IMG/VR virus record: IMGVR_UViG_3300030329_006012
Span: 1 to 64,000 of that record
Direction: 5' to 3' (one strand)
Source of the DNA: a virus
DNA: 64,000 nucleotides
Part shown: positions 1 through 12,220 of the stretch, piece after piece
How the letters are laid out: each line of letters begins with the position of its first letter
Numbering within the stretch: the stretch's first letter is position 1
Translations under genes and position numbers: made by a program
Notes under the pieces: model-generated
What the model was told of the DNA's origin: nothing
Database searches by the model: none
Seen by the model: only the letters and a program-made list of their open reading frames with translations

Positions 1-612
1 GATTTTGATCCGGAACCGTTCTTTAAGAAATGTTTTGATAATGAAGTGTCTCTCCTCAAAGAAGATGTCCAGCCAACAGATAGTCAAAAGGCCGACTTCG
101 AAGCACAGGGCGTAGGAATTATACCAGAGGTAATCCCTGCCCTCAACGAGTACTTCGGAGAATTTAGTTTGGTTTCTTCGGAAGAAGAAATCCACGAAAA
201 GTTGGACTTTAAGACAGATGACAGTTTCACATTTAAAGGATATGTTGATTGCCTGATAAAGACTCCAGACGGAAAATATCACGTCATCGATTGGAAGTCT
301 TGCAGTTGGGGTTGGGATATGCGAAAGCGCACAGATCCGATGGTAACTTATCAGCTTACATATTACAAACATTTTCTTTCTGAAAAGCGGAACATTCCAA
401 AAGAAGATATTGAAACTCACTTTGCCCTTCTCAAGAGAACGGGGAAAAAAGATAGGGTTGAATTGTTCCGTGTTACGTCGGGAGAAAAAAAGACAAATAA
501 TGCCCTTAAACTTCTTGAGCAGTCGGTTTATAATATAGATAGACAAAATTATGTTAAGAACAGACTCTCCTGTTCTCGTTGCGATTTCAAGGGGACTGTT
601 CACTGCCCATAG
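1..612 (+). CDS. PD-(D/E)XK nuclease, Cas4/RecB-like exonuclease (5'-truncated by window edge)
   Basis: Frame is open from base 1 (DFDPEPFFKK...). Motifs GYVDCLI...VIDWKS, QLTYY and C-terminal CSRC-x7-C resemble Cas4-like Fe-S nucleases. Confidence 0.8.
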   Translation, partial: DFDPEPFFKKCFDNEVSLLKEDVQPTDSQKADFEAQGVGIIPEVIPALNEYFGEFSLVSSEEEIHEKLDFKTDDSFTFKGYVDCLIKTPDGKYHVIDWKSCSWGWDMRKRTDPMVTYQLTYYKHFLSEKRNIPKEDIETHFALLKRTGKKDRVELFRVTSGEKKTNNALKLLEQSVYNIDRQNYVKNRLSCSRCDFKGTVHCP

Positions 613-620
613 GTGAACTT

Positions 621-1880
621 ATGAAGAAAAAGATTTTAACTTTATCCGACCACCCCTTCTCCCCTAGTGGTGTCGGCACACAAACAAAATACGTTATCGA
701 GGCCCTTCTCAAAACTGGAGAATATCAAATTATTTCTTTAGGCGGGGCCATAAAACATCAAAATTATCAACCCATTAAAACTGAGCAATGGGGAGAAGAT
801 TGGATTGTACACCCCGTCGACGGGTACGGAACACCAGATCTAGTCAGATCTGTTATTCGTTCTGAGAAGATCGACATGGTTTGGATAATGACCGACCCGC
901 GCTTTTGGGGTTGGCTCTGGGAGATCGACGACGAAATCCGCTCGGTGTGTCCCATAGTCTATTACCACGTGTGGGACAATTACCCATATCCCACCTACAA
1001 CAAGCAGCACTACCTTTCCAATGACGCCATCGCCACGATATCAAAGGTGACAGATGATATTGTAAAGACAGTAGCCCCATCAGTTGAGAGCAAGTATATT
1101 CCTCATGCAGTGAATGGAGACGTATTCAAGCCACTACCTGCAGAGAAAATTAAAGAATATAAAACTAGAACTCTAACTCCCACTGGCGGCGCAGACAAAT
1201 TTGTATTCTTCTGGAACAACCGAAACGCTCGCAGGAAACAAAGCGGCTCGCTGCTTTTTTGGTACAAGGACTTGCTGGATCGGATTGGCAAGGACAAGAC
1301 GTGCCTGATCATGCACACTGATATTACTGACGCTCACGGTCAAGATTTAAAAAAGATAATCGAAGAGCTGGACATGACAAATGGCGAAGTAATGTTTTCA
1401 ACAACTAAGGCGCCTGCAGAAGAGTTGGCGAATATGTATAATATGGCAGATTGTGTTATAAACGTCGCCGACGCTGAAGGCTTCGGCCTTGCAACACTAG
1501 AGGCCCTATCTTGTGAAACACCAATTATCGCAACCATGACTGGCGGACTTCAAGAACAAGTCACAGATGGTGAAAGTTTTTTCGGAATTGGAATCGAGCC
1601 GGCATCAAAGGCAATTATAGGATCTCAGGACATTCCTTGGATTTACGAAGACCGCTTAAATGGTGAAGATGTCGTCAATGCCATGCAGATGATGGTCGAA
1701 ATGCCATCAGAAGAACGCTTAGCACTTGCAGCAGCCGGCCGCCAACACGTACTCAAGAACTATAACTTTGAAGATTTTGAGAAGACGTGGGTAAGTTTTA
1801 TAAAAGAAGTTATGGACAAGAATGGTAGCTGGGAAGACAGAAAAAATTACAGCACGTGGACTTTGGAGGAGATTTCATGA
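621..1880 (+). CDS. Glycosyltransferase, GT-B fold, GT4-like (#1)
   Basis: N-terminal TLSDHPFSPSGVGTQ, NRNARRK and AEGFGLATLE (E-x7-E). ATG 621 follows AGGTGA. Confidence 0.9.
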   Translation: MKKKILTLSDHPFSPSGVGTQTKYVIEALLKTGEYQIISLGGAIKHQNYQPIKTEQWGEDWIVHPVDGYGTPDLVRSVIRSEKIDMVWIMTDPRFWGWLWEIDDEIRSVCPIVYYHVWDNYPYPTYNKQHYLSNDAIATISKVTDDIVKTVAPSVESKYIPHAVNGDVFKPLPAEKIKEYKTRTLTPTGGADKFVFFWNNRNARRKQSGSLLFWYKDLLDRIGKDKTCLIMHTDITDAHGQDLKKIIEELDMTNGEVMFSTTKAPAEELANMYNMADCVINVADAEGFGLATLEALSCETPIIATMTGGLQEQVTDGESFFGIGIEPASKAIIGSQDIPWIYEDRLNGEDVVNAMQMMVEMPSEERLALAAAGRQHVLKNYNFEDFEKTWVSFIKEVMDKNGSWEDRKNYSTWTLEEIS

Positions 1881-3127
1881 AAAAGATAATTGTAAAAGGA
1901 CCAGCATTAAGTGCCTCCGGATATGGCGAGCATGCCCGTTTCATCTTGAGAGCCCTTAGAAAAAGAGAGGATGTTTTTGATATCTATCTTCACAATCTTT
2001 CGTGGGGCAAGACAGGCTGGCTATTCGAGGATTCCGAAGAACGCCGCTGGATTGACGAAATAATCAAGAAGACGGCAGTTTATCTTTCGCAGAACAAGGG
2101 GAGAGTCTTTTTTGACTTTTCTATGCAGGTTACGATCCCCAACGAGTTTGAGAAGATGGCAGCCGTCAACATTGGCGTAACTGCCGGCATTGAGACCACC
2201 AAAGTAGATCCATCATGGCTCCAGAAAGCAAACGAGATGGATAAGCTGATTGTTGTCTCAAGTCACGCAAAGCGCGGCTTTGAAGAGACCAAATATCCCC
2301 TCCTCAACGACCAACAGCAGCACGTGATGGATCTGGAATGTAACATCCCTGTCGAGGTTGTTGGCTATCCTGTGAGAAAGTTCGAAAAGGCAGATGTAGA
2401 TTTTAAATTTGATACAAAGTTTAACTTCTTATCTGTTGCTCTCTGGGGACAGAGAAAAAACATGGTAAAGACAGTGGAGAACTTTGTTGAAGAGTTCCGA
2501 TATGACGAAGATGTCGGATTAATTCTCAAAACAGCGTTCAGAAGTGGGTGCACCTATGATAAAGAAAATATGAGACTGTCATTGCAGAACATTTTGTCCC
2601 AATATCCTGATCGCAAGTGTAAGGTCTATCTTTTACACGGAAGACTTAGTGAGAGTGAATTGGCAACTCTCTATGAGCACGATTCTGTAAAGTGTATGCT
2701 TTCTCTTGCACATGGCGAAGGCTTTGGGCTTCCCTTGTTCGAGGCAGCTTCAATTGGGCTTCCCGTTGTTGCTACCGACTGGAGTGGCCAAACAGACTTT
2801 TTATACGCTCCCCAGAAAAACAAAAAAGGTAAAGAAAAGCTAAAAGGGCTTTTTGGAAAAGTGTCTTATGACTTACATAAGGTCCAGCAGGAGTCCGTAT
2901 GGGAAGGGGTCATAACCGCAGATTCAATGTGGGCCTACCCAAAGGACAATTCTGCAAAAGAGAAAATGAGAGATGTCTATAAAAACTATGATCTGGCGCT
3001 CAGTAAAGCAAAGAAGCTGAAGGAATATGTTGTAGTTGAGTTCGACTCAGAAAAGATGTATGATAAGTTGGTTTCTCACATCCCAATTACCCCAGAGGCC
3101 TCTAAAGACGAATTCATGGTGCTATAA
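1877..3127 (+). CDS. Glycosyltransferase, GT4-like (#2)
   Basis: GPALSASGYG, RKN and GEGFGLPLFE...PVVATDWSG. ATG 1877 follows GGAGG and overlaps the upstream stop (ATGA). Confidence 0.88.
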   Translation: MKKIIVKGPALSASGYGEHARFILRALRKREDVFDIYLHNLSWGKTGWLFEDSEERRWIDEIIKKTAVYLSQNKGRVFFDFSMQVTIPNEFEKMAAVNIGVTAGIETTKVDPSWLQKANEMDKLIVVSSHAKRGFEETKYPLLNDQQQHVMDLECNIPVEVVGYPVRKFEKADVDFKFDTKFNFLSVALWGQRKNMVKTVENFVEEFRYDEDVGLILKTAFRSGCTYDKENMRLSLQNILSQYPDRKCKVYLLHGRLSESELATLYEHDSVKCMLSLAHGEGFGLPLFEAASIGLPVVATDWSGQTDFLYAPQKNKKGKEKLKGLFGKVSYDLHKVQQESVWEGVITADSMWAYPKDNSAKEKMRDVYKNYDLALSKAKKLKEYVVVEFDSEKMYDKLVSHIPITPEASKDEFMVL

Positions 3128-4338
3128 TGAAGTTTATATACATAAGTCAATTTCACGATAACTGTGGGTACGGCTCTGCGGCCCGTGGATATCTAAAAGC
3201 TCTCAGCAACCATTTTTCCCCCGACGACCTCAAGATTCACAGCGTGTCATTGGAGAGAAGAAATAGTATTCTTAAAGACTCAGATGTGGAGCTGCTGGAC
3301 AAGTATTCTTTTAAAGATCTCGCTACAGCCGAAAAGTTTGCAGAAGAGGAAGAATATGTGGTGGTGTGGCATATGCCCCCTCCAATGGTGACGTTGGCAG
3401 AGAAGTATGCGCCTTTTGATCCAACTTGGAAGTGTATCAAGATAATGATGGAAAATGGTGTTCGGAATATTAATATTTCGGCATGGGAGGCAACAGGGAT
3501 CCCAAGAGCCTGGGAAGATATATATAAAAACATGAAAACCACAGATGTCATTGTTCCGAGTACATGGAATCAGGAAGTGTACAGCAAGAAAATAAAGACC
3601 CACTATGTGCCCCATATCATGGAAACGCCCCAGTATGAAACCATTCCAATGGATATGCCAGTGGATTTTGAAAATAATTTTGTTTTATTCTCTATGTCAC
3701 AGTGGTCTCATCGTAAGGGGTTTGACTCATTAATCAGAGCGTTCTGCATGGAGTTTGGAGAACAAGAAGATGCATATCTTATCATAAAGACTTATGGCGT
3801 CATCGCAGACTCTTATCCTGTTTCGCAGGAGGAGCAGGCAAGGTCGATAACGAACGAAGCCTTAAATTACAAAAATCAAGTGCAACTAGAGTACGAGAAA
3901 TCTCCAAAGTGTAAGCTCGTGGTAATTCCAAAGGTCTTGCCAGAGGAGAAGATATCTTGGCTCTATGAGAACTCCACCGCTTTTGCTCTTTTGACAAGGG
4001 GCGAAGGCTTCGGACTTACTGTTGCCGAAGCGACAATGTTGGGCCTCCCCGTTATTGTCCCCGATTCCGGTGGCCACACAGATTATTTACAAGAGTATGA
4101 TAATAAATACCTTACGGAAGGACATTGGACGCCATACTTCGGGCTTCCTGGTTATAGCTGCGAGATTAGTTGGTATGAACCAGACATCGCTTCAGCACGT
4201 TCAGCCCTTCGCCAGTGCTACAATGATTGGAAAGACGGAAAGATTTCTAGAAAACCCAATCCTGCGGTATCTTTTACTAAGGCGGAGGTGGGCAAAAAGT
4301 TTACGACCATCTTAATGGAGGTTGCACATGGCGGTTGA
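3127..4338 (+). CDS. Glycosyltransferase, GT4-like (#3)
   Basis: CGYGSAARGY, HRKGFD and GEGFGLTVAE...GLPVIV. Confidence 0.88.
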   Translation: MKFIYISQFHDNCGYGSAARGYLKALSNHFSPDDLKIHSVSLERRNSILKDSDVELLDKYSFKDLATAEKFAEEEEYVVVWHMPPPMVTLAEKYAPFDPTWKCIKIMMENGVRNINISAWEATGIPRAWEDIYKNMKTTDVIVPSTWNQEVYSKKIKTHYVPHIMETPQYETIPMDMPVDFENNFVLFSMSQWSHRKGFDSLIRAFCMEFGEQEDAYLIIKTYGVIADSYPVSQEEQARSITNEALNYKNQVQLEYEKSPKCKLVVIPKVLPEEKISWLYENSTAFALLTRGEGFGLTVAEATMLGLPVIVPDSGGHTDYLQEYDNKYLTEGHWTPYFGLPGYSCEISWYEPDIASARSALRQCYNDWKDGKISRKPNPAVSFTKAEVGKKFTTILMEVAHGG

Positions 4339-5332
4339 TATAATTAAGGAAAAGGTTGCAGAAATAGATTTTGATACTTCTCATGGATTTAAGACTGCTA
4401 TTTGCGTGTTAGCATATAACCGGCCCGACTATTTTAAGGAAGTGGTGGAATCGATTGAGGCAAACACAGAGTCTCATGAGTTGCCCGTTTTCTTCTTTTT
4501 AGATGGGGGCCCCAACTCGACAACAAAAGAGAACATAGAAATTATAAAGTCTTGCAAAAAGATAAAAAACAAATTTGTAATCGCGAGAGAAGGAAATATC
4601 GGATGTTCGAAAAACCTAATTGACGCGAGGCGATTTGTATTTGATAAAATGGGTTTTGACTTGGCTTTTATATTTGAGGATGACCTCGTTGTATCTGAGA
4701 ATTATGTTCGTCTTCTTTTAAACGCCTATAAAGACCTCTCAGAAAAGTATGAGAATATTGGGATGTTGCAGGCTTGGAATTTGGATGAAGATGCCAATGT
4801 TGAGAACCCAGATGAAGAAAAGTTATCTTCTTTCAGGGTAATAGAGGACACTCACTTGTGGGGATACCTCATGCCACGAAAAGCGTGGGATCAAATCAAG
4901 GAGAGAATGTATGAGTATGAAAAAACATTTCATGATCCGCTCCCGAAGAATGGCATGGGCAAGATTGTTTTCGAGAGCAACTTAGGCGCTGTAAGAAAGT
5001 TCATGCATGAAAGTTGGAGTGAACCACCCTCTCAGGAAGGGAACCCCTCGATTATAGTTGACCCCTTTATTGAAAAAAAGAAGGGGAGATTCTTTGGCCC
5101 TAACGCACCCACTGGCCAAGATATTAATACGGAATTAAACTTATCTTCAAAGGGGCTTGTTCGCCTCGTTGCATGCCAGAACAGATCAAGATATATTGGC
5201 AAGATTGGCCTTCATGCGACGCAGGCCATATGGGATAAGTGGGGTTTTGGTACTATTAGGCTAGTCAATCACCGTAGCGACAAACTTGTTGAGAGGTTTT
5301 CTGTAGTGGGGGACACTGCGAGGAATGAGTAA
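4322..5332 (+). CDS. GT-A fold glycosyltransferase (GT2/GT13-like)
   Basis: ICVLAYNRPDYF, FFLDG, NIGCSKN, IFEDDLVVS (DxD-type), LWG and RSRYIGKIGLH. Confidence 0.75.
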   Translation: MHMAVDIIKEKVAEIDFDTSHGFKTAICVLAYNRPDYFKEVVESIEANTESHELPVFFFLDGGPNSTTKENIEIIKSCKKIKNKFVIAREGNIGCSKNLIDARRFVFDKMGFDLAFIFEDDLVVSENYVRLLLNAYKDLSEKYENIGMLQAWNLDEDANVENPDEEKLSSFRVIEDTHLWGYLMPRKAWDQIKERMYEYEKTFHDPLPKNGMGKIVFESNLGAVRKFMHESWSEPPSQEGNPSIIVDPFIEKKKGRFFGPNAPTGQDINTELNLSSKGLVRLVACQNRSRYIGKIGLHATQAIWDKWGFGTIRLVNHRSDKLVERFSVVGDTARNE

Positions 5333-6035
5333 GATTATTGTGTGTGGCTCGAAAAGGTACGTGAATATCAAATTTGACAAACTGGTAGACTCTTTCGATG
5401 AGATAGTTAGAACCAACTTGTTGCTTCCTGATGATGGGTATGGCCTCCGAAACCCGACGATACAGCCTATCAATTGCCATATGTGGGCAAAATATAAAAA
5501 GAAGGTGCCCTTATCGGGGTGGAAAGAGTATATAAAAAGGGGCGTGACAGAAGATTATATAAAGAGGTTTAAGAAATTTATTGATTCTGCCACTGATACG
5601 AAGTTTGTAACTTATACTCGCAATAACACGTCAAAGATGAAGAATTTTTGTAAAAAGAAGAATATTAATGCAAATATAAGGAAAGAAATACGTAATGGCC
5701 TCTCTTATGTTGCAGAGTGCCTATCTTCTGGCAAAAAACCTTTTCTTATTGGATTTTCTCTTTCAAAGGAGGACTACGAATTTAGTCAGGTCCACGGAGA
5801 TAGGAGAAGAGCAGATCGAAAAATTAATGACGCCCATCATTCTAGGGGTTCCGAAATAGAGTTGATAACAGAGCTCCACAACAAGGGATACATTGATGCC
5901 TCCTTTTGTTGTATCTGCGACGAAAAAGAGCTGCGGTTTTGCACAAAAGTCATAACTCCCACCCCCAGATCCCTTGAGTTGGCGAAGAAGCTTCTTGCTA
6001 ATGACCAGTGCGCCAACAGCGAGGATAAAGTATGA
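5325..6035 (+). CDS. GT29-like (sialyl/Kdo-transferase-like) protein
   Basis: Sialylmotif-L-like IIVCGS...VDSFDEIVRTN...GYG, S-like NGLSYVAECL...FLIGF and VS-like H-x4-E (HSRGSE..I.EL...G.I). Confidence 0.6.
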   Translation: MSKIIVCGSKRYVNIKFDKLVDSFDEIVRTNLLLPDDGYGLRNPTIQPINCHMWAKYKKKVPLSGWKEYIKRGVTEDYIKRFKKFIDSATDTKFVTYTRNNTSKMKNFCKKKNINANIRKEIRNGLSYVAECLSSGKKPFLIGFSLSKEDYEFSQVHGDRRRADRKINDAHHSRGSEIELITELHNKGYIDASFCCICDEKELRFCTKVITPTPRSLELAKKLLANDQCANSEDKV

Positions 6036-6958
6036 TGGAAAAATTTAACAACAAGCCTGTGTTTCCCGTTTCACCTTCTTACGATCCGGATGGGAGCCTA
6101 AGCACCACCGGTAGTATAAAGTATGTGAAGTATCTGGAATCTAACGGCGCTGAAGTAATCATGACCACGGCAGGCACCTCTCAGTTCAACTTGTTATCTC
6201 TGGCAGAAATCCGAGAACTGAACATTTCTGTGTGTAATAATTTTAAGAAAATTAAAATAGTGGGCATCCCGGCACTATCAAAAAGAGATCTGGTCGCTGA
6301 GATAAAGTTCTACGACAAGCATATTGAAGACAAGAAAGACGTTGTTCTGCTGCTTCTGTATCCTGAGAGGTTTTATGATAATGAAACGGTGTCTCGCTAT
6401 TTTTCCGATGTAGAGAAAATTTCTGACTTCAACCTCATGATTCACGGTAAGGAGATAAGAAAAGGTACCGGTGGAATTAAAGAATATGATGCAGATCTGT
6501 TAAATCACATATTGGCCAAAACAAGTAAAATTATAGGCATGAAGGAAGAGTGTGGAAGTTTTGAATTGGGCTACGATACCATTAGAAAGCTGCCAGAAAA
6601 CTTTATAACGATAGTTGCAGGAAAGAGCATTAGGAGATACGAATTTCTTAAAAAAGCTGGCGCAACCACCTTTCTTTCTGGTGTAGGGAGCTTTTATCCA
6701 CAGTTTGAGGTGGAATACTTTTCTTCAAAGAATAGGCAGGATTTCCTAGATATTGAAAATAACCTTTTTGACACATTTATGTCAATTGGTTGGCACAAGA
6801 GCATGAGAAATGCTATAAGGTACATGAAGGTGGGGTGTGAACACGATAGGCAACCATTTCCTACCTTCTCCCCGCAGGAGAAGAGGGAAATAGTAAGCAG
6901 ACTTAGAGAAGTCGAGGAATTTTTGAGTTCCGTCGAGGAGGCCCACGATGAAGCATGA
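6032..6958 (+). CDS. DHDPS/N-acetylneuraminate lyase family class I aldolase
   Basis: PVFPVSPSYDPDGSL, TTAGTSQFNLLS (cf. GTTGE..LS) and Schiff-base Lys motif IIGMKEE. Substrate not assignable. Confidence 0.75.
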   Translation: MMEKFNNKPVFPVSPSYDPDGSLSTTGSIKYVKYLESNGAEVIMTTAGTSQFNLLSLAEIRELNISVCNNFKKIKIVGIPALSKRDLVAEIKFYDKHIEDKKDVVLLLLYPERFYDNETVSRYFSDVEKISDFNLMIHGKEIRKGTGGIKEYDADLLNHILAKTSKIIGMKEECGSFELGYDTIRKLPENFITIVAGKSIRRYEFLKKAGATTFLSGVGSFYPQFEVEYFSSKNRQDFLDIENNLFDTFMSIGWHKSMRNAIRYMKVGCEHDRQPFPTFSPQEKREIVSRLREVEEFLSSVEEAHDEA

Positions 6959-7604
6959 TAAGTTATCCACAGTGTGGTCGAATTCGACACGCAAATGGCG
7001 CCATTTGGACTATACCGACGCCGTGTCGAAAAATTATGAATTTCTCTCTGAGTGCACGAGAGAGTTTGATAAGGACGAAATTGAAGAAGTTGTAGATTGG
7101 GGCCCCGGAGGAGGGTGGCTATCAAAGTTCTTTGTAGACTGTGATATCCACCTAGTAGATATCGTCTCCTCTAATTTGGAAGAGTCCGCCGAGAACGTCA
7201 GGGCCACAGCAAGGTCGGTAGAGGCACATCACATCAAAGACATCGAAGAGGCCAATACACTGGGTTCATTATCTCCCGATATTCTAATGGCGTTTTCAGT
7301 TATATACCATTTCCCGACAATTGAATACTGGAAGTCGGTGTCTGGCTTGTGGAATCAGATGTCTCCTCGCTATATTGTGGGACGCACTTTCCTGACCAAT
7401 GGCGATTCATGGCAACGCTCGGAGAAGAAATACGCAGTAGGGAGAAATTATCTTCGCGGAATCGTTTTAAATAAAGAGGAATTTATAAATTCTTTCCCTG
7501 ACTATAAGATAATATATGAAAAGAAGATAAGCCAAAAGTATGATAGGCACGGCGCCCCCGCCGATCAATATTCATATGTTTTTCTCTTTGAGAGGAAAGC
7601 GTGA
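6948..7604 (+). CDS. Class I SAM-dependent methyltransferase
   Basis: Motif I VVDWGPGGG, HLVDI and AFSVIYHFP. Confidence 0.8.
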   Translation: MKHDKLSTVWSNSTRKWRHLDYTDAVSKNYEFLSECTREFDKDEIEEVVDWGPGGGWLSKFFVDCDIHLVDIVSSNLEESAENVRATARSVEAHHIKDIEEANTLGSLSPDILMAFSVIYHFPTIEYWKSVSGLWNQMSPRYIVGRTFLTNGDSWQRSEKKYAVGRNYLRGIVLNKEEFINSFPDYKIIYEKKISQKYDRHGAPADQYSYVFLFERKA

Positions 7605-8293
7605 AGATAGCAGTCATACCAGCCCGTGCCGGATCTACTAGGTTGAAAAACAAAAACACACACCCGCTGAAGGGCAAGCCACTTATTAGGTGGGTGACAG
7701 AAGCAGTTATAGAGTCGCGGTGTTTTGATAAGGTGGTCATCTCAACCGACGGTGATGATATTTTTGATGCTGTGGCAGACTTGAATGTTACTCGCCACAA
7801 ACGACCAGGCTCCCACGCCACGGTCAGCGCAACGGCACTTGATGCGATGCTAGACTATATGCAAAATAACCCTCCCTTGGGGGCGGAAGCGGAAGATGCA
7901 ATTTTTGCTTATTTTCTCCCCACTTGTCCGTTTGTATCTCCTGTCGACATTAAGCGCGGTATGGAACTACTGGAGTGTAGTGGGTCTAGATGCGACACCG
8001 TAGTCAGTATGACCCAGATCCCAGAAACAATTCAGTTGGCGTGTGTCATGAAGAACGATTGGGTTCTTCCCGTTTTTGATAACCTAGAGTGTGGACTAAC
8101 TAATAGCAAATTTATTAAAAGATACTTTAAACCATCTGGGGCATTCTATATGGGACGTTGGGATAAGGTATTACAAAATAAAAACTTCTTTAAAGGAAAC
8201 GTAAAGGGTGTTATAATACCACCAGAGAGGTCAGTTGATATAAATAATATTAATGATATTAGGTTTGCAGAATCTATGCCGGAGGGAATATGA
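7601..8293 (+). CDS. Acylneuraminate/Kdo cytidylyltransferase (NeuA/KdsB family)
   Basis: IAVIPARAGSTRLKNKN...L.GKPLI, VVISTD, LPTCPF, SGAFY and SVDINNIND. Confidence 0.88.
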   Translation: MKIAVIPARAGSTRLKNKNTHPLKGKPLIRWVTEAVIESRCFDKVVISTDGDDIFDAVADLNVTRHKRPGSHATVSATALDAMLDYMQNNPPLGAEAEDAIFAYFLPTCPFVSPVDIKRGMELLECSGSRCDTVVSMTQIPETIQLACVMKNDWVLPVFDNLECGLTNSKFIKRYFKPSGAFYMGRWDKVLQNKNFFKGNVKGVIIPPERSVDINNINDIRFAESMPEGI

Positions 8294-9021
8294 AAGTTCA
8301 TAAAAAATGGCTCACAAAAAATAAAAAAGATCAAACCAAAGAAAATAAGGATAAGTTTGTTTTTACAAATAATCACGGCTGTGCATTTTTGAAAGCTGAT
8401 TTTATGTCATCCCTAGATTCGAATTCAAAACTGAAAATGATGGAGATAGGCTGTCAGGAAGGGAACGTCTCGATTAAATTGATAAAAGAATATCTTCGAC
8501 ACAGTGACAGCAGGATGTATTGTCTTGATCTGTTTCCTCCTGACAAGCTCGGCATGGAGAGAAATTTTGATCACAACATCAGCTTGTTGGGCGATGATGC
8601 AAGCAAGGTAATCAAGTGTTCGGGCCCCTCATGGAAGAGTTTAAGAAATTTAAGTACAGAAGAAAACTTTGAAAGTTTTGATCTGATCTATGTTGATGGT
8701 TGGCATGGAGCACACGGTGTGCTGGACGATGCTGTCTTGTCTTGGAAGTTATTAAAGGTGGGGGGCTTTTTAGTGTTTGATGATTATTCTTGGTCCAAGG
8801 CCGGCATGAAAGATTTCCGCAAACCTAAACTAGCTATTGATTCTTTTATAAAAATCTTTAAGATTTTCTTTAATGAAACTAAAGCAGGCAATCAAAAGTG
8901 TTTTAAAAAGACAGTTTCAAACGACATGGAAATCAGACGCTGCCAAGAGAAGGGCGGCTCTGATGAGCTTTCGTCAAAATACTTTGTAGATTTAAAAGAG
9001 GGGGATAGTTATGAGCAATAA
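8290..9021 (+). CDS. Class I SAM-dependent methyltransferase (Methyltransf_24-like)
   Basis: MEIGCQEG, YCLD and FDLIYVDGWH...DAVLSWKLLKVGGFLVFDDY. Confidence 0.85.
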   Translation: MKVHKKWLTKNKKDQTKENKDKFVFTNNHGCAFLKADFMSSLDSNSKLKMMEIGCQEGNVSIKLIKEYLRHSDSRMYCLDLFPPDKLGMERNFDHNISLLGDDASKVIKCSGPSWKSLRNLSTEENFESFDLIYVDGWHGAHGVLDDAVLSWKLLKVGGFLVFDDYSWSKAGMKDFRKPKLAIDSFIKIFKIFFNETKAGNQKCFKKTVSNDMEIRRCQEKGGSDELSSKYFVDLKEGDSYEQ

Positions 9022-9808
9022 AGTTTGGATACTAGGGCCCTGTTCAATCGAGAATGAGGAATTATATTTTTCAACATACGAAAAACTAGCCTCCTTCATG
9101 GGAGATAGGGACTGGTACTATAAGGCATCATTTGATAAGGCAAATAGAACATCTCTCACCGGCGGCCGAGGACCAGGACTAGAAAAGAGTATAGAAATCT
9201 TTGAGGATCTAAAAGATAAACACCCAGAAGCAAAGCTTCTCACGGATGTTCACGAAACATGGCAAGTTGAAAAACTTGCACACGTCATCGACTGCGTTCA
9301 AATCCCGGCATTTCTCTGTAGGCAAACAGACTTGATTGTTGAGTGCGCGAAAAGTTTCAGCAAGGTGAATATTAAAAAAGGGCAATGGATAGGCCCAAAC
9401 AATCTAATAAAATCGGTTGACAAGGTAAAAAATGTTAACCCTGAATGTGAGGCGTGGATCTGTGATCGTGGAACAAACTTTGGATATAATGACTTGTTTG
9501 TTAATTTTGGCATTGTCGATGAACTCAAAAAGCATTATGATAAGGTCTTAATAGATTGCACACACTCAATACAGAGATCGAGAGCTATATATGGCACACA
9601 GGGAGACCGCCGACTGGCAGAGAGGTACCTTCTCTCTTCTGATGTCTTTGGATACGATGGTGTTTTTGCAGAGGTCCACCCAGACCCACCATCAGCCGTC
9701 TCTGACGGAGACTGCCAGATCTACTTAGACAAAATCGAAGGCTTGATAAGAAGGTCGGAAACCATTTCGCGTGTAGTTGCCGAGAAAGATCGCGCCCGTG
9801 AGGAATAA
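9011..9808 (+). CDS. kdsA: 3-deoxy-D-manno-octulosonate 8-phosphate synthase
   Basis: GPCSIE, KASFDKANRTS, LTDVHE, QIPAFLCRQT, NIKKGQW, DRGTNFGY, DCTHS and EVHPDP..A.SDG. The Cys/His/Glu/Asp set suggests the metal-dependent class. Confidence 0.92.
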   Translation: MSNKVWILGPCSIENEELYFSTYEKLASFMGDRDWYYKASFDKANRTSLTGGRGPGLEKSIEIFEDLKDKHPEAKLLTDVHETWQVEKLAHVIDCVQIPAFLCRQTDLIVECAKSFSKVNIKKGQWIGPNNLIKSVDKVKNVNPECEAWICDRGTNFGYNDLFVNFGIVDELKKHYDKVLIDCTHSIQRSRAIYGTQGDRRLAERYLLSSDVFGYDGVFAEVHPDPPSAVSDGDCQIYLDKIEGLIRRSETISRVVAEKDRAREE

Positions 9809-10367
9809 GATTCATATCGGATACCACAAGTGTGGGTCGACTTTTTTGCAGAAGCTGATTTTTCCTTGTGTGCCGACCTACGAGGGTAGACTTTATGGAA
9901 AAGGTCATGCTAGGTGCAATTTCAGGAAGTTTTACAAAAAAGGCTTCAAAGAAACTTGCCGAGCGATAGAGAAGCACTACTCCAATAGGGAGGGCGTGTT
10001 TATATCTCATGAGGGATTTTCTAGCCTAAGACACCAGCATTTGTTTGAGATTTTAGGTGATGACTGGGATGTTTTGGTGGTGAAAAGAAATTTGCACGAT
10101 CTCATACAAAGCCGTCTCCGCCACAAACCGCACGACTTTTTTCTCTATGACAAAATTAAGCGCGGCACCATCGATGCGGAGGTGAAGCGTTTTTACGATC
10201 CGGAAAGTCTAAAGAAAGGGTTCAGCCACCTTACGGTATTATCCTTCGAAAAGCTTTTTTCAGGGGAAAAGGAAGAGCTTGATAGGTTATCTAAATATCT
10301 GGGCCACGACATAGGGCCCATTTTCCGAGAAAATATTAGTCGAAGAAAGAACTCAAGAAAGAAATAA
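9798..10367 (+). CDS. Sulfotransferase-like P-loop protein
   Basis: IHIGYHKCGSTFLQ (5'-PSB-like loop), SHEG, VVKRN...SR and LSFEKL. GTG start at 9798 overlaps the kdsA end. Confidence 0.65.
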   Translation: MRNKIHIGYHKCGSTFLQKLIFPCVPTYEGRLYGKGHARCNFRKFYKKGFKETCRAIEKHYSNREGVFISHEGFSSLRHQHLFEILGDDWDVLVVKRNLHDLIQSRLRHKPHDFFLYDKIKRGTIDAEVKRFYDPESLKKGFSHLTVLSFEKLFSGEKEELDRLSKYLGHDIGPIFRENISRRKNSRKK

Positions 10368-10373
10368 ACCATT

Positions 10374-11042
10374 ATGAGGGCTGAAGATATAAGTGAAAAA
10401 TTACAAGAAGATGGGTATGTGGTACTCCCCGACTATCTGAAGGGTAATCCCATGAAAGAACTTTTTTTTGAAGAGGTGGGGGACATTTTATCTAATTCAT
10501 CTGCCGACAAAGGATATAAGTTTGGAAAAGCAGAAAGAATTGGGTCTTTGAATAAGAATTCCAAGAATAGAATAGGAATGTCACATTGTTTTACAACCCC
10601 CCTTCTCGAAGAAGTTCGGAGGGGAAAATTTAAGGCAGATTGCAAATTCACTGAGATTTTTGTGACTCATGAGTTTACTGACGAGAATGGGCTGGAGAGG
10701 AACGGGTATTTACACTTTGATCGTATTTGGACTTTTAAGTATTTTTACTACATAACAGATACGAGAAGTCAGGCTGATGGGCCACTAACTGTTGTCCCCG
10801 GCTCCCATGTTTTGGGAAAGAAGCTGAGAAAGGCTCAGCTCGCCACTGGTGCCCCCTATAAAGAACAAAAAAATAGAATAGAAATTGATTTCCCACTTGT
10901 ATATGAAGAAATTAAATCAAAGAAGACACCGCTTTACGGGCCTGCAGGCACTCTTGTCATATTTGATACCGATGTTTTTCATATGGGCGGGACAGTAACT
11001 GCCGGCCACGAGAGGAAAGTGTGCCGACTGCACATGAGGTAG
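10374..11042 (+). CDS. 2OG-Fe(II) dioxygenase, phytanoyl-CoA dioxygenase-like
   Basis: DGYVVL, H-x-D (LHFD), GPLTVVPGSH, GPAGTLVIFD..FH.GG and a terminal Arg. Confidence 0.85.
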   Translation: MRAEDISEKLQEDGYVVLPDYLKGNPMKELFFEEVGDILSNSSADKGYKFGKAERIGSLNKNSKNRIGMSHCFTTPLLEEVRRGKFKADCKFTEIFVTHEFTDENGLERNGYLHFDRIWTFKYFYYITDTRSQADGPLTVVPGSHVLGKKLRKAQLATGAPYKEQKNRIEIDFPLVYEEIKSKKTPLYGPAGTLVIFDTDVFHMGGTVTAGHERKVCRLHMR

Positions 11043-11084
11043 AGGAGAATAATTATGAAATTATCAGATCAAGCAGTGGGATCA
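11043..11084 (+). repeat. Direct repeat copy 1 (42 bp): RBS and first 10 codons of the 11445 gene
   Basis: AGGAGAATAATTATGAAATTATCAGATCAAGCAGTGGGATCA; 40/42 identical to 11433-11474. Encodes a truncated MKLSDQAVGSQICPL*. Confidence 0.95.
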
Positions 11085-11139
11085 CAGATATGTCCCCTCT
11101 AATGTGGCAAAAAAAACTACAGAGAAGACTTGGGGAGTA

Positions 11140-11442
11140 ATGATCATATACGTTGACATCGATGAGACAATTTGTTTTTCTCCGGAAAGTAGAGATTATT
11201 CTATGGCTACCCCCATAGAAAAAAACATTAACAAAATAAACAAAATGTATGATAATGGAGATACAATAGTCTACTGGACAGCTCGTGGGACTCTCACTGG
11301 CAAAGATTGGAGAGGGGTGACAGAAGGGCAGTTTAAGAGGTGGGGTGTAAAATATCACGAACTGAAATTCGGAAAGCCGGCCTATGACCTGTTTATAGAT
11401 GACAAGAATATAAGTTCAGAAGAATTTTTTAAAGGAGAATAA
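11140..11442 (+). CDS. HAD-superfamily phosphatase (capsule-biosynthesis type)
   Basis: IYVDIDETI (DxD), YWTARG, GKP and LFIDDK. ATG 11140 follows GGGGAG. Confidence 0.85.
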   Translation: MIIYVDIDETICFSPESRDYSMATPIEKNINKINKMYDNGDTIVYWTARGTLTGKDWRGVTEGQFKRWGVKYHELKFGKPAYDLFIDDKNISSEEFFKGE

Positions 11443-11474
11443 TAATGAAATTATCAGATCAAGCAATGGGATCA
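11433..11474 (+). repeat. Direct repeat copy 2 (42 bp)
   Basis: AGGAGAATAATAATGAAATTATCAGATCAAGCAATGGGATCA; start of the intact 65-aa gene. Confidence 0.95.
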
Positions 11475-11642: not shown

Positions 11643-11892
11643 ATATGTTTATGAATGCACTGAGTGCGGTTTCGTCAAGGAGGTCGTCCACTCTATGAAA
11701 GAAAAGCTTAAAGATTGTGAAGAATGTGATACAATAGAGGTACTTAGGAGAGTTCCTTCGTTCACCCTATCTATTGGACCTGGTGTTTCTACATCTAGTG
11801 GGACAAGAGTAAAGGATTTTATTGAAGAAACTCGTTCTGAACTTAAGAAAGAGAAAAAGGAATTGCAGAGAAAAGAGTATTCTAATGATTGA
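11635..11892 (+). CDS. FmdB-type zinc-ribbon protein
   Basis: MPKYVYECTECG...H.M...CEEC. Confidence 0.8.
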   Translation: MPKYVYECTECGFVKEVVHSMKEKLKDCEECDTIEVLRRVPSFTLSIGPGVSTSSGTRVKDFIEETRSELKKEKKELQRKEYSND

Positions 11893-12220
11893 AATTATTT
11901 TAGTAGCTTCGGTTATTTTTAATTTAGCACTTATGTGGTATGGTTATCTTCTTTTGAGGAAAGTAATATACGTCTCAGGTAATACGTCGGAGATAATTGG
12001 TGCTGTTGATAAATACCGAGACCACCTCAACGGTGTTTTCGAATTAGAGATGTTTTATGGAGATGAAACACTCCAATCTCTATTGGAGCACACCAGTGAC
12101 CTGTCCACTTTCTTAGGAGAATGCGAACAAGCATATGGAATGACTGAAAGTGAGTATGGGAATTATGTCGAAAGTGTCCAAGAAGAAGAAGCGGCGCCGG
12201 ATGAGCAGGGGCGGGGGTAA
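11885..12220 (+). CDS. Hypothetical membrane-anchored protein
   Basis: N-terminal hydrophobic helix (IILVASVIFNLALMWYGYLLL) and an acidic C-terminus. Confidence 0.65.
   Translation: MIEIILVASVIFNLALMWYGYLLLRKVIYVSGNTSEIIGAVDKYRDHLNGVFELEMFYGDETLQSLLEHTSDLSTFLGECEQAYGMTESEYGNYVESVQEEEAAPDEQGRG

What the first reader, a model, noticed from the sequence alone, without database searches (positions are those of the whole stretch)
621..11442. Phage-encoded pathway to make, activate, transfer and decorate a Kdo-like ulosonic acid
Seen: 13 contiguous, mostly overlapping genes inside an otherwise T4-like phage. They comprise KdsA, a HAD phosphatase, a NeuA/KdsB-family cytidylyltransferase, a GT29-like transferase, a DHDPS/NAL aldolase, three GT4s, one GT-A, two methyltransferases, a sulfotransferase-like protein and a 2OG dioxygenase. 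Established: KdsA, then a Kdo8P phosphatase, then KdsB yields CMP-Kdo, and GT29 enzymes use CMP-activated ulosonic acids. Inference: this is a nearly self-contained virus glycosylation system that builds a methylated, sulfated or hydroxylated Kdo-capped glycan on virion proteins or the infected-cell surface. No arabinose-5-phosphate isomerase (KdsD) is in the window, so that substrate would come from the host or elsewhere in the genome.
Basis: partly seen in the sequence, partly recalled or inferred. Interest (0 to 1): 0.88.

Follow-up and report, generated by a model that had tools for sequence, protein, structure and literature searches.

The report
Phage Kdo-type sugar and glycan operon
A complete 190-kb marine T4-like phage carries a 13-gene operon of soluble enzymes that most likely makes a modified Kdo-type acid sugar, activates it with CMP and builds it into a tailored glycan; the core of this gene set recurs in many uncultured phages and a few bacteria but has not been studied experimentally.

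Summary
Thirteen co-directional genes fill 621-11442, and 10 of 12 junctions overlap. All 13 family calls hold: seven at curated cut-offs, six weak but corroborated.

The block is genuine phage DNA. The contig closes into a circle, its composition is typical of the genome, and a relative has the same PhoH-nuclease-GT4-GT4 flank.

- **Core.** It comprises a DHDPS/NAL-like Schiff-base enzyme, a distinct KdsA subfamily, a NeuA/PseF-type (not KdsB-type) cytidylyltransferase, a soluble mini-GT29-like transferase, a PhyH dioxygenase and a phosphatase.
- **Spread.** The DHDPS-like gene recurs in 27 non-redundant viral groups, and in 24 of the 26 others KdsA overlaps its end. The module also sits in Bacteroidota polysaccharide loci that keep housekeeping KdsA/KdsB elsewhere.
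- **New links.** Some metagenomic proteins fuse the GT29-like domain to PhyH. The phosphatase step is filled by at least three different enzyme types.
- **Product.** Probably a tailored Kdo derivative, not plain Kdo.
- **Acceptor.** Unresolved. No membrane machinery is present. Virion proteins are slightly favoured over host LPS or capsule precursors. DNA glycosylation is unlikely.
- **Precursor.** No KdsD exists anywhere in the genome.

This scan found the same module earlier on other phage DNA. Published mentions I found are passing only. I class it as a new variant of a known kind.

The parts
1..612 (+). Upstream flank: PD-(D/E)XK nuclease. Its 5' part lies at the other end of the circular contig.
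   Evidence: PF12705 at 40 bits. The terminal 97-nt overlap closes the circle. The same PhoH...nuclease flank occurs in relative L013.
621..1880 (+). GT4 glycosyltransferase a
   Evidence: PF00534 at 51.5 bits. 58% identical to the syntenic gene in L013. Weak PDB hits include chlorovirus GT B736L.
1856..3127 (+). GT4 glycosyltransferase b
   Evidence: PF00534 at 36.2 bits. 53% identical to the L013 gene.
3127..4338 (+). GT4 glycosyltransferase c
   Evidence: PF00534 at 51.4 bits.
4322..5332 (+). GT-A fold glycosyltransferase (GT2/GNT-I-like; family not assigned)
   Evidence: PF13641 at 24.0 bits and PF00535 at 23.2 bits, both just below cut-off. ESM Atlas neighbours are GNT-I/GT2/MGAT2 clusters at TM 0.8, some of them from tailed phages.
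5325..6035 (+). Soluble mini GT29-like (sialyltransferase-fold) transferase; the presumed CMP-ulosonate transferase
   Evidence: hhalign 92.9% to a PF00777-positive (91 bits) protein at the same position in L013. AF2 model pLDDT 82.9. Foldseek top hits are all sialyltransferases. VIA Z 9.0-9.9 to ST6GalNAc2, ST8SiaIII and ST3Gal-I. 9 of 60 family members hit PF00777 and no other glycosyltransferase family. No hydrophobic segment.
6032..6958 (+). DHDPS/NAL-superfamily Schiff-base enzyme; step unknown; invariant partner of the cassette KdsA
   Evidence: Weak PF00701 and KdgD hits. The family has 118 clusters with invariant K171, GTSQ, H138, R113 and R202. About equally distant from all solved family members, at most 49 bits. 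Followed directly by KdsA in 24 of the 26 other non-redundant viral groups.
6948..7604 (+). SAM-dependent methyltransferase 1; frequent cassette member
   Evidence: Weak UbiG and class-I methyltransferase hits. Homologues in 16 of 35 viral loci and a methyltransferase in the bacterial cassette.
7601..8293 (+). NeuA/PseF-type cytidylyltransferase (CMP-ulosonate synthetase)
   Evidence: PF02348 at 83 bits. The best full-length NCBIfam match is PseF at 107 bits; KdsB models match only the first 60-85 residues. The best PDB matches are NeuA enzymes.
8290..9021 (+). Methyltransferase 2 (Methyltransf_24, O-methyltransferase-like)
   Evidence: PF13578 at 47 bits.
9011..9808 (+). Metal-dependent Kdo8P synthase of the cassette subfamily
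   Evidence: NF003543 at 251.5 bits against a cut-off of 242. 188 bits to Aquifex KDO8PS, with GPC, KANRT, CRQ, THS, E.HP and SD motifs kept. It falls in a 100/100-supported clade apart from housekeeping KdsA.
9777..10367 (+). Sulfotransferase-like protein
   Evidence: PF00685 at E 0.009. 5'-PSB HKCGSTFL and 3'-PB RN..S motifs present. 55% homologue follows the cytidylyltransferase in L014. Sulfotransfer_1 occupies the same position in the bacterial cassette. The phage has an APS kinase at genome position 128075-128533.
10374..11042 (+). PhyH-type Fe(II)/2-oxoglutarate dioxygenase
   Evidence: PF05721 at 33.7 bits. HxD...H motif present. Present in 24 of 35 viral loci. Fused to the GT29-like domain in 5 of 10 long family members. 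The C-terminal half of fusion protein P0186 is 27% identical, E 2e-13.
11104..11442 (+). Capless mini-HAD phosphatase (presumed ulosonate-phosphate phosphatase)
   Evidence: TIGR01689 at 26 bits and phrog_1238 at E 8e-27. DIDET, T, K and DD motifs present. Homologues in 20 of 35 viral loci.
11040..11084 (+). Left copy of a 45-nt direct repeat that brackets the HAD gene
   Evidence: the repeat finder: 2 copies, 93% identical, 390 nt apart.
11430..11474 (+). Right copy of the 45-nt direct repeat. It holds the stop codon, the ribosome-binding site and the first 10 codons of the next ORF.

Best explanation
The block is one operon of 13 soluble enzymes that builds a tailored glycan carrying a Kdo-type ulosonic acid. 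It uses no lipid-carrier export machinery of its own.

Proposed steps, each marked as shown or inferred:
1. The cassette KdsA condenses PEP with host arabinose-5-phosphate. The family and catalytic motifs are shown; the substrate is inferred.
2. A phosphatase, here the mini-HAD, removes the terminal phosphate. This is inferred, but supported because different phosphatase types fill this slot in other loci.
3. The DHDPS-like enzyme binds the 2-keto-3-deoxy acid through its invariant lysine and alters it, for example by C4 epimerisation or dehydration. The linkage is shown; the chemistry is unknown.
4. Methyltransferases O-methylate the sugar (inferred).
5. The NeuA-type enzyme makes the CMP-sugar. 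The family is shown; the substrate is inferred.
6. The soluble mini-GT29 transfers the sugar, and the PhyH dioxygenase hydroxylates it at or after transfer, much as KdoO makes Ko. This is inferred from the GT29-PhyH fusions.
7. Three GT4 enzymes and a GT-A enzyme build the underlying oligosaccharide. The sulfotransferase-like protein uses PAPS, aided by the phage APS kinase.

Acceptor (inferred): phage virion proteins or fibres about 45%, host LPS or capsule precursors at the inner membrane about 35%, something else about 20%.
For: - Gene families and motifs.
- GT29-like assignment.
- Conserved linkage: the DHDPS-like gene occurs in 27 non-redundant viral groups, and in 24 of the 26 others KdsA overlaps its end. 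In 35 viral loci that carry the DHDPS-like gene, KdsA is present in 34, the cytidylyltransferase in 28, GT29-like in 24, PhyH in 24 and the mini-HAD in 20.
- The same HAD(KdsC-type)-DHDPS-KdsA-methyltransferase-cytidylyltransferase-sulfotransferase row sits in a bacterial Wzx locus. The Haliscomenobacter MAG that carries the cassette keeps a housekeeping KdsA and KdsB elsewhere.
- Cassette KdsAs form a separate clade with 100/100 support.
- The phosphatase slot is filled by a mini-HAD, a KdsC-type HAD or a His_Phos_1 enzyme, and a PAP2 phosphatase lies next to the pair in one group.
- GT29-like and PhyH occur as fusion proteins.
- None of the 13 proteins has a hydrophobic segment.
- The genome is circular, composition is typical, and the flanks are syntenic.
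- Plant GT29 RCKT1 is a putative CMP-beta-Kdo transferase (PMC11288761).
Against: - No enzyme activity was tested, and no isolate of this phage exists.
- The cytidylyltransferase resembles the nonulosonate enzymes (NeuA, PseF), not KdsB. I know of no NeuA-type enzyme that accepts Kdo; that statement rests on my own knowledge.
- The role of the DHDPS-like enzyme is unexplained.
- The loop that caps arabinose-5-phosphate in KdsA (L7) differs from the housekeeping form, so the sugar phosphate could be a different one.
- The sulfotransferase, methyltransferase 1 and GT-A calls are weak.
- Nothing found identifies the acceptor: there are no Ser/Thr-rich tracts in structural proteins and promoter scans were uninformative.
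Confidence: 0.68

Rival explanations
1. An ordinary auxiliary-metabolism reading. The genes only boost or alter the host's own LPS or capsule synthesis. Plain CMP-Kdo and extra glycosyltransferases act on lipid A-core or undecaprenyl-linked intermediates, changing the infected cell's surface, for example to block superinfection.
For: The bacterial counterpart of the cassette sits in a Wzx-type surface-polysaccharide locus. LPS-core glycosyltransferases are also soluble or peripheral. A GT25 'LPS biosynthesis' gene and two sulfotransferases lie 7 kb upstream. One phage group has a PAP2 phosphatase beside the pair. This is how the literature reads phage kdsA/neuA genes (PMC5332604 and PMC12801897).
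Against: The phage has no flippase, polymerase, ligase or priming transferase. The GT29-like transferase occurs in the phage versions (24 of 35 loci) but in none of the bacterial loci, which suggests a phage-specific acceptor. Bacteria with the cassette keep housekeeping KdsA and KdsB, so the cassette is not a simple CMP-Kdo booster.
Confidence: 0.35
2. The product is not an octulosonic acid. Either the divergent KdsA uses a longer sugar phosphate to make a nonulosonate such as Kdn-9-P, or the NAL-like aldolase itself makes the acid sugar that the NeuA-type enzyme and the GT29-like transferase then handle.
For: Three of the four core enzymes are 'sialic-acid-type' (NAL-like, NeuA/PseF-like, GT29-like). 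The KdsA L7 loop differs from the housekeeping form and the clade sits on a long branch. The bacterial cassette HAD scores almost equally as KdsC (109.9 bits) and as Kdn-9-P phosphatase (108 bits).
Against: The KANR(T/S) motif and all metal and PEP ligands of KDO8PS are kept, and NF003543 is passed. Plant GT29 RCKT1 is linked genetically to Kdo. No NeuB exists in the genome.
Confidence: 0.2
3. DNA hypermodification: the glycosyltransferases and the acid sugar decorate modified bases in phage DNA. Phage MT-TET-GT clusters have been reported to do this, including a tentatively assigned Kdo adduct on 5hmC.
For: Pyle et al. report Kdo-like and multi-sugar adducts on 5hmC made by phage glycosyltransferases. 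In this and other phages the cluster lies beside DNA-metabolism genes such as PhoH, a nuclease, RecA and a polymerase. It contains methyltransferases and a dioxygenase.
Against: The genome has no C5-cytosine methyltransferase (PF00145) and no thymidylate-synthase/hydroxymethylase family member. There was no Tet_JBP hit either, although the control genomes were silent for that family. The dioxygenase is PhyH-type and occurs fused to GT29-like domains. The same cassette sits in a bacterial polysaccharide locus.
Confidence: 0.07
4. Artefact: the block is cellular DNA wrongly joined to a phage contig.
For: The block lies at the very start of the contig, and its G+C is slightly low (0.422 against 0.446).
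Against: The first 97 nt repeat at 190126-190222, so the contig closes into a circle and the nuclease gene spans the junction. G+C is at the 12th percentile and tetranucleotide distance at the 76th percentile of same-size genome windows. An independent relative has the same PhoH-nuclease-GT4a-GT4b...cassette order at 51-78% identity.
Confidence: 0.02

Closest known systems
Canonical bacterial Kdo pathway (KdsD, KdsA, KdsC, KdsB, then WaaA GT30 or KpsC/KpsS)
   Same: A KDO8PS-family synthase with all catalytic motifs, followed by a phosphatase step, CMP activation and transfer.
   Different: There is no KdsD. KdsA belongs to a separate clade. The activator is NeuA/PseF-type, not KdsB. The transferase is GT29-like, not GT30, GT99 or GT107. 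A DHDPS-like enzyme is an obligatory partner.
Sialic and nonulosonic acid systems (NeuB, NeuA, GT29/GT42 sialyltransferases, NAL lyase)
   Same: A NeuA-type cytidylyltransferase, a sialyltransferase-fold transferase and a NAL-superfamily enzyme.
   Different: There is no NeuB. The condensing enzyme is KdsA-type. The GT29-like protein is about 230 aa, soluble and falls below the Pfam threshold.
Plant RG-II Kdo transfer by GT29 RCKT1/MGP2 (PMC11288761)
   Same: A GT29-type enzyme linked to a Kdo pathway rather than to sialic acid.
   Different: The plant enzyme is a Golgi membrane protein that uses KdsB-made CMP-Kdo. Neither its activity nor that of the phage protein has been shown in vitro.
KdoO, the Fe(II)/2-oxoglutarate Kdo 3-hydroxylase that makes Ko after Kdo transfer (from my own knowledge)
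   Same: A 2-oxoglutarate dioxygenase functionally tied to a ulosonate transferase. Here the tie is shown by GT29-PhyH fusion proteins.
   Different: The phage enzyme is PhyH family, not the KdoO family. Its substrate and regiochemistry are unknown.
Virus-encoded glycan machineries: chlorovirus and mimivirus clusters (my own knowledge), mycobacteriophage virion glycosylation (Freeman 2023, cited in PMC12619734), cyanophage S-SCSM2R KdsA/KdsB (PMC12801897), TARA viral genome with NeuA+KdsA (PMC5332604)
   Same: Cytoplasmic, virus-encoded sugar synthesis combined with glycosyltransferases. Phage kdsA and neuA genes have been noted before.
   Different: The S-SCSM2R KdsA is a different clade paired with KdsB. 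I found no report of the DHDPS-KdsA-NeuA-GT29(-PhyH) cassette in the open literature searched.
Phage DNA glycosylation clusters (MT, TET-like 5mYOX, GT; Pyle et al.)
   Same: Phage glycosyltransferases using LPS-type sugars, including a tentatively assigned Kdo adduct.
   Different: The defining C5-methyltransferase and hydroxymethyl-pyrimidine route were not found here.

Membership tests
KDO8P synthase (KdsA) | Score above a curated equivalog cut-off | tested here: met
   NF003543 scores 251.5 bits against a cut-off of 242. A second model, TIGR01362, scores 242 bits against its cut-off of 314 and is not passed.
KDO8P synthase (KdsA) | Catalytic motifs: metal ligands Cys/His/Glu/Asp, the KANRS sugar-phosphate motif and the CRQ arginine | tested here: met
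   GPCSIEN, KANRT, FLCRQTDL, DCTHS, AEVHPDP and SDGD align with Aquifex KDO8PS.
KDO8P synthase (KdsA) | Groups with housekeeping KdsA in a tree | tested here: not met
   The cassette clade is separate with 100/100 support and a branch length of 1.91. The L7 loop also differs.
KDO8P synthase (KdsA) | Condenses arabinose-5-phosphate with PEP | not testable with these tools
   Needs an enzyme assay.
CMP-Kdo synthetase (KdsB) | Full-length match to KdsB equivalog models | tested here: not met
   KdsB models match only residues 3-60 to 3-86, at 34-53 bits against cut-offs of 155-281. The best full-length match is PseF at 107 bits against a cut-off of 205.7. PDB: NeuA at 85 bits full length.
CTP_transf_3 cytidylyltransferases (NeuA/KdsB superfamily) | Pfam PF02348 above the gathering score | tested here: met
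   83.4 bits against a cut-off of 22.6.
GT29 sialyltransferase family | Pfam PF00777 hit on the protein itself | tested here: not met
   No hit even at E <= 10. Nine of 60 family members do hit PF00777, best E 7e-6.
GT29 sialyltransferase family | Sialyltransferase (GT-A variant) fold and profile-level homology | tested here: met
   hhalign 92.9% to a protein that scores 91 bits on PF00777. VIA Z 9.0-9.9 to ST6GalNAc2, ST8SiaIII and ST3Gal-I; the ten best entries are all GT29.
GT29 sialyltransferase family | Sialylmotifs L, S and VS with the catalytic His | tested here: inconclusive
   By eye, L-like (CGS...D.F..IVR.N), S-like (G...P.LIGFS) and H....E motifs are conserved, with invariant R29, G125, H172 and H185. 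No structure-based residue mapping was done.
DHDPS/NAL class I aldolase superfamily | Schiff-base lysine on strand 6 | tested here: met
   K171 is invariant in 23 family members and aligns with the lysine of solved members.
DHDPS/NAL class I aldolase superfamily | Catalytic Tyr and GTTGE motif | tested here: not met
   An invariant His138 replaces the Tyr, and the motif reads GTSQ. The protein's own Pfam score is 18 bits against a cut-off of 22.1.
HAD phosphatases / KdsC | HAD motifs I-IV | tested here: met
   DIDET, T, K and DD motifs are present.
HAD phosphatases / KdsC | KdsC (YrbI) subfamily membership | tested here: not met
   The only NCBIfam match is TIGR01689 at 26 bits. The bacterial cassette HAD does pass TIGR01670, at 109.9 bits against 106.95.
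PAPS-dependent sulfotransferases | Family profile and PAPS-binding motifs | tested here: inconclusive
   PF00685 scores 15.9 bits against a cut-off of 22. The 5'-PSB and 3'-PB motifs are present by eye.
Wzx/Wzy- or ABC-dependent surface polysaccharide locus | Priming transferase, flippase or transporter, polymerase or ligase (membrane proteins) | tested here: not met
   The highest 19-residue hydropathy in any of the 13 proteins is at most 1.45. The bacterial counterpart does have a Wzx gene.
Phage DNA glycosylation cluster | C5-cytosine methyltransferase or dCMP/dUMP hydroxymethylase | tested here: not met
   PF00145 and PF00303 are absent from the whole genome.
Phage DNA glycosylation cluster | TET/JBP-type 5-methylpyrimidine dioxygenase | tested here: inconclusive
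   PF12851 gave no hit, but the family did not ring in any control genome either.

The most novel reading that the evidence does not exclude
The cassette makes an undescribed acid sugar: a Kdo derivative reshaped by a Schiff-base (DHDPS-like) enzyme, then methylated and hydroxylated. Large marine phages attach this sugar with soluble mini-GT29 enzymes to their own virion fibres or capsid. That would be the first Kdo-type virion glycosylation in a phage. It would also be evidence that Kdo-type transfer, not sialylation, is an old function of the GT29 fold.
Probability: 0.3. Interest if true: 0.85.

Novelty: new variant of a known kind. Interest (0 to 1): 0.68.

Why it matters
Virus-encoded glycosylation is well studied in giant viruses and has recently been found in mycobacteriophages. 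In marine phages, glycan genes are usually dismissed as 'LPS auxiliary genes'.

Here a defined, portable six-enzyme core recurs in at least 27 distinct phage groups. It comprises a DHDPS-like enzyme, a cassette KdsA, a phosphatase, a NeuA-type activator, a mini-GT29 and a PhyH dioxygenase. The module offers:
- a probable new acid sugar;
- small soluble GT29-type transferases, which could be useful tools and inform how the sialyltransferase fold arose;
- a testable hypothesis for an unassigned branch of the DHDPS/NAL superfamily.

It could also affect how phage particles or infected cells are recognised in the ocean.

Tried and rejected
- **Nucleotide searches.** Megablast of the cluster and of 22 kb of structural genes against isolate phages found nothing.
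- **PDB sequence searches.** The GT29-like and GT-A proteins gave no match.
- **Promoter and terminator scans.** Counts were no better than shuffled sequence. T4 late (TATAAATA) and TANTTA-N5-ATG motifs do not precede the cluster, so expression timing is unknown.
- **Acceptor search.** No mucin-like Ser/Thr-rich tract was found in any phage ORF.
- **Fusion-protein contexts.** The contigs carrying the GT29-PhyH fusions were too short to show neighbours.
- **Cellular genomes.** The genome-contig scan found only one genome with the module, a Haliscomenobacter MAG.
- **PDB profile search for the DHDPS-like family.** It did not single out any characterised subfamily, so the chemistry of that step could not be assigned.
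- **Genome-wide family searches.** NeuB, KdsD, GDP-mannose dehydratase and isocitrate lyase are all absent. This phage therefore lacks the aceBA and GDP-sugar genes reported for the 179-kb TARA genome.
- **Tet_JBP search.** Uninformative, because no control genome matched.
- **One context look-up.** It failed for lack of capacity and was repeated successfully.

Full report
**What is there.** The window is the first 64 kb of a 190,225-bp IMG/VR virus record. Its first 97 nt recur at 190126-190222, so the contig closes into a circle of about 190.1 kb, and the 5'-open nuclease gene at 1-612 continues from the other end. The phage is T4-like: it has a Gp23 capsid protein (204 bits), a T4-type portal (271 bits) and a baseplate wedge. 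It is far from any isolate. Megablast found nothing, and the closest baseplate proteins are about 30% identical, in Microcystis phage Mel-JY01 and the Flavobacterium 'immuto' phages.

**The observation.** Thirteen + strand genes run from 621 to 11442. Ten of the 12 junctions overlap by 1-32 nt. The family calls fall into two groups.
- *At or above curated cut-offs:* three GT4 enzymes, a CTP_transf_3 cytidylyltransferase, a Methyltransf_24 enzyme, KdsA (NF003543, 251.5 bits against 242) and a PhyH dioxygenase.
- *Weak on their own but corroborated:*
  - GT-A enzyme: the ESM Atlas places it with GNT-I/GT2-like clusters at TM about 0.8.
  - Methyltransferase 1: only weak class-I methyltransferase hits.
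  - Sulfotransferase-like protein: PAPS-binding motifs are present.
  - Capless HAD: all four HAD motifs are present, and phrog_1238 matches at E 8e-27.
  - DHDPS-like enzyme and the 236-aa protein at 5325-6035: treated below.

No protein in the block has a membrane-spanning segment. No KdsD/SIS domain and no NeuB exist anywhere in the genome.

**The 236-aa protein is GT29-like.** It has no Pfam or PDB sequence match of its own. Four lines of evidence support the assignment.
- A syntenic relative (L013) has, at the same position, a 211-aa protein that scores 91 bits on PF00777. The profile of the 236-aa family aligns to it at 92.9% probability.
- An AlphaFold model (pLDDT 82.9) hits only sialyltransferases at the top of Foldseek.
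- That model gives VIA Z 9.0-9.9 to ST6GalNAc2, ST8SiaIII and ST3Gal-I, and about 7.5 to CstII.
- An exhaustive profile search found 266 representatives. Of 60 sampled, 9 hit PF00777 and none hit another glycosyltransferase family.

**It is phage DNA, not a chimera.** The cluster's G+C (0.422) is at the 12th percentile of same-size windows of this genome, and its tetranucleotide distance is at the 76th percentile. Across the circular junction the upstream genes are PIN-PhoH, a metallopeptidase-like gene and the nuclease. An independent 20-kb metagenomic contig (L013) has the same order: PhoH...nuclease-GT4a-GT4b, then the cassette. Identities are 51-78%.

**A conserved core with a variable periphery.** Searches with KdsA and with a DHDPS-like profile recovered 35 viral loci that carry the DHDPS-like gene, forming 27 groups at 90% identity including this phage.
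- KdsA is present in 34 of the 35 loci; the exception is cut off at its contig end.
- In 24 of the 26 other groups the KdsA start overlaps the DHDPS-like stop by 1-44 nt.
- A cytidylyltransferase is present in 28 of 35 loci, a GT29-like gene in 24, PhyH in 24, the mini-HAD in 20 and methyltransferase 1 in 16.
- The GT4, GT-A, methyltransferase 2 and sulfotransferase genes are sporadic.
- Host contigs range from 12 to 459 kb and mostly share no other genes with this phage.
- In this genome the order is rearranged: methyltransferase 1, the cytidylyltransferase and methyltransferase 2 lie between the DHDPS-like gene and KdsA.
- The HAD gene is bracketed by 45-nt direct repeats, which looks like an insertion scar.

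**Bacterial counterpart.** A bacterial contig family, found on contigs of up to 3.4 Mb and with a SusC-like neighbour, carries this row: KdsC-type HAD, DHDPS-like, KdsA, methyltransferase, PseF-like cytidylyltransferase, Sulfotransfer_1, Wzx flippase. A Haliscomenobacter MAG has the module too. That MAG also holds a housekeeping KdsA (380 bits on NF003543) and a KdsB (194 bits) elsewhere, so the cassette is a dedicated second pathway. In a maximum-likelihood tree the cassette KdsAs form one 100/100-supported clade on a long branch. They sit apart from 11 housekeeping Bacteroidota KdsAs and from the KdsA of cyanophage S-SCSM2R, which pairs with KdsB. All catalytic motifs are kept; only the substrate-capping L7 loop differs.

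**Two further links.**
- *The phosphatase slot.* It is filled by a mini-HAD, a KdsC-type HAD or a His_Phos_1 enzyme, and one phage group has a PAP2 phosphatase beside the pair. This argues that dephosphorylation of a KdsA product is a required step.
- *GT29-PhyH fusions.* Five of ten long members of the GT29-like family are fusions to a PhyH domain. One of these domains is 27% identical (E 2e-13) to the stand-alone PhyH here. This ties the dioxygenase to the transferred sugar. The known parallel is KdoO, which hydroxylates Kdo after transfer; I cite that from my own knowledge.

**The unexplained enzyme.** The DHDPS-like family has 118 clusters, and its nearest ESM Atlas clusters are largely from tailed phages. 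It keeps the Schiff-base lysine but has His in place of the catalytic Tyr, GTSQ in place of GTTGE, and several invariant arginines. It is about equally distant from DHDPS, NAL, KDG aldolase and KdgD. I infer that it acts on the 2-keto-3-deoxy acid made by KdsA, possibly on its phosphate, but the reaction is unknown. Together with the NeuA/PseF-type rather than KdsB-type activator, this makes a modified Kdo more likely than plain Kdo. A non-octulosonate product is not excluded.

**Sulfation.** The genome also holds an APS kinase. Two Sulfotransfer_2 genes and a GT25 gene lie about 7 kb upstream across the junction, so sulfated glycans are plausible.

**Acceptor.** The phage has no membrane machinery, and the GT29-like gene occurs only in the phage versions of the cassette. 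Both points favour a phage-specific, cytoplasmic acceptor such as virion proteins. The bacterial context and the usual literature reading favour host LPS or capsule instead. DNA glycosylation has a precedent, including a tentative Kdo adduct. However, the genome lacks a C5-methyltransferase and a hydroxymethylase. Nothing I tried identified the acceptor.

**Prior knowledge.**
- Phage kdsA and neuA genes have been mentioned in passing for a 179-kb TARA viral genome (PMC5332604).
- kdsA has been listed among viral auxiliary genes in a virome survey (PMC11018836).
- KdsA/KdsB were reported as 'first in a cyanophage' for S-SCSM2R (PMC12801897).
- Plant GT29 RCKT1 is a putative CMP-beta-Kdo transferase (PMC11288761).
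- I found no description of this cassette in the library.
- Earlier notes of this scan describe the same module on other phage genomes and reach the same reading. I reached my conclusions before reading them.

**Verdict.** This is a new variant of a known kind.

Noticed in passing
window 11040-11084 and 11430-11474: A 45-nt direct repeat (93% identical, 390 nt apart) brackets the HAD gene. It duplicates the stop codon, ribosome-binding site and first 10 codons of the next ORF, leaving a 15-codon remnant ORF at about 11054. It looks like a single-gene insertion scar. In relatives the HAD gene sits upstream of the DHDPS-like gene instead.
   Followed up: partly
genome 1-97 and 190126-190222: The contig ends overlap by 97 nt, so the record classed as 'linear' is a closed circular (or circularly permuted) genome of about 190.1 kb.
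   Followed up: yes
L002 10829-12854 (genome 181128-183153); genome 128075-128533: A second glycan block has two Sulfotransfer_2 genes and a GT25 gene, and an APS kinase lies elsewhere in the genome. Together with the studied operon, the phage devotes at least 13 kb to glycan genes.
   Followed up: partly
L002 7541-10075 and 13949-15352 (genome 177840-180374 and 184248-185651): An 844-aa protein carries a QueC-like domain, and a 467-aa protein resembles radical-SAM lysine aminomutases. These may point to 7-deazaguanine or another base or cofactor pathway.
   Followed up: no
proteins P0161, P0184, P0186, P0215, P0218 (metagenomic): These are natural fusions of the mini GT29-like domain with a PhyH dioxygenase domain. 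Other long family members (P0240, P0241, P0256) have unassigned extensions, and P0248 has N-terminal TPR repeats.
   Followed up: partly
L013 6123-9059: The syntenic relative replaces this phage's GT4c and GT-A genes with glycosyltransferase families typical of plants and eukaryotes: Nucleotid_trans (PF03407), Exostosin GT47 with RXYLT1_C, and a Sulfotransfer_2 and Methyltransf_21 pair. These sit next to a bona fide PF00777 GT29.
   Followed up: no
L066-L070 (e.g. L068 9228-13490): One phage group has PAP2 phosphatase, DHDPS-like, KdsA, PhyH and a sugar C-methyltransferase (Methyltransf_14), but no detectable cytidylyltransferase or GT29-like gene within 10 kb.
   Followed up: partly
window 11822-12220: Just downstream of the operon is a 132-aa ORF with one strongly hydrophobic segment (hydropathy 2.55), followed by a zinc-ribbon protein and an M23 peptidase. 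Their roles are unknown.
   Followed up: no
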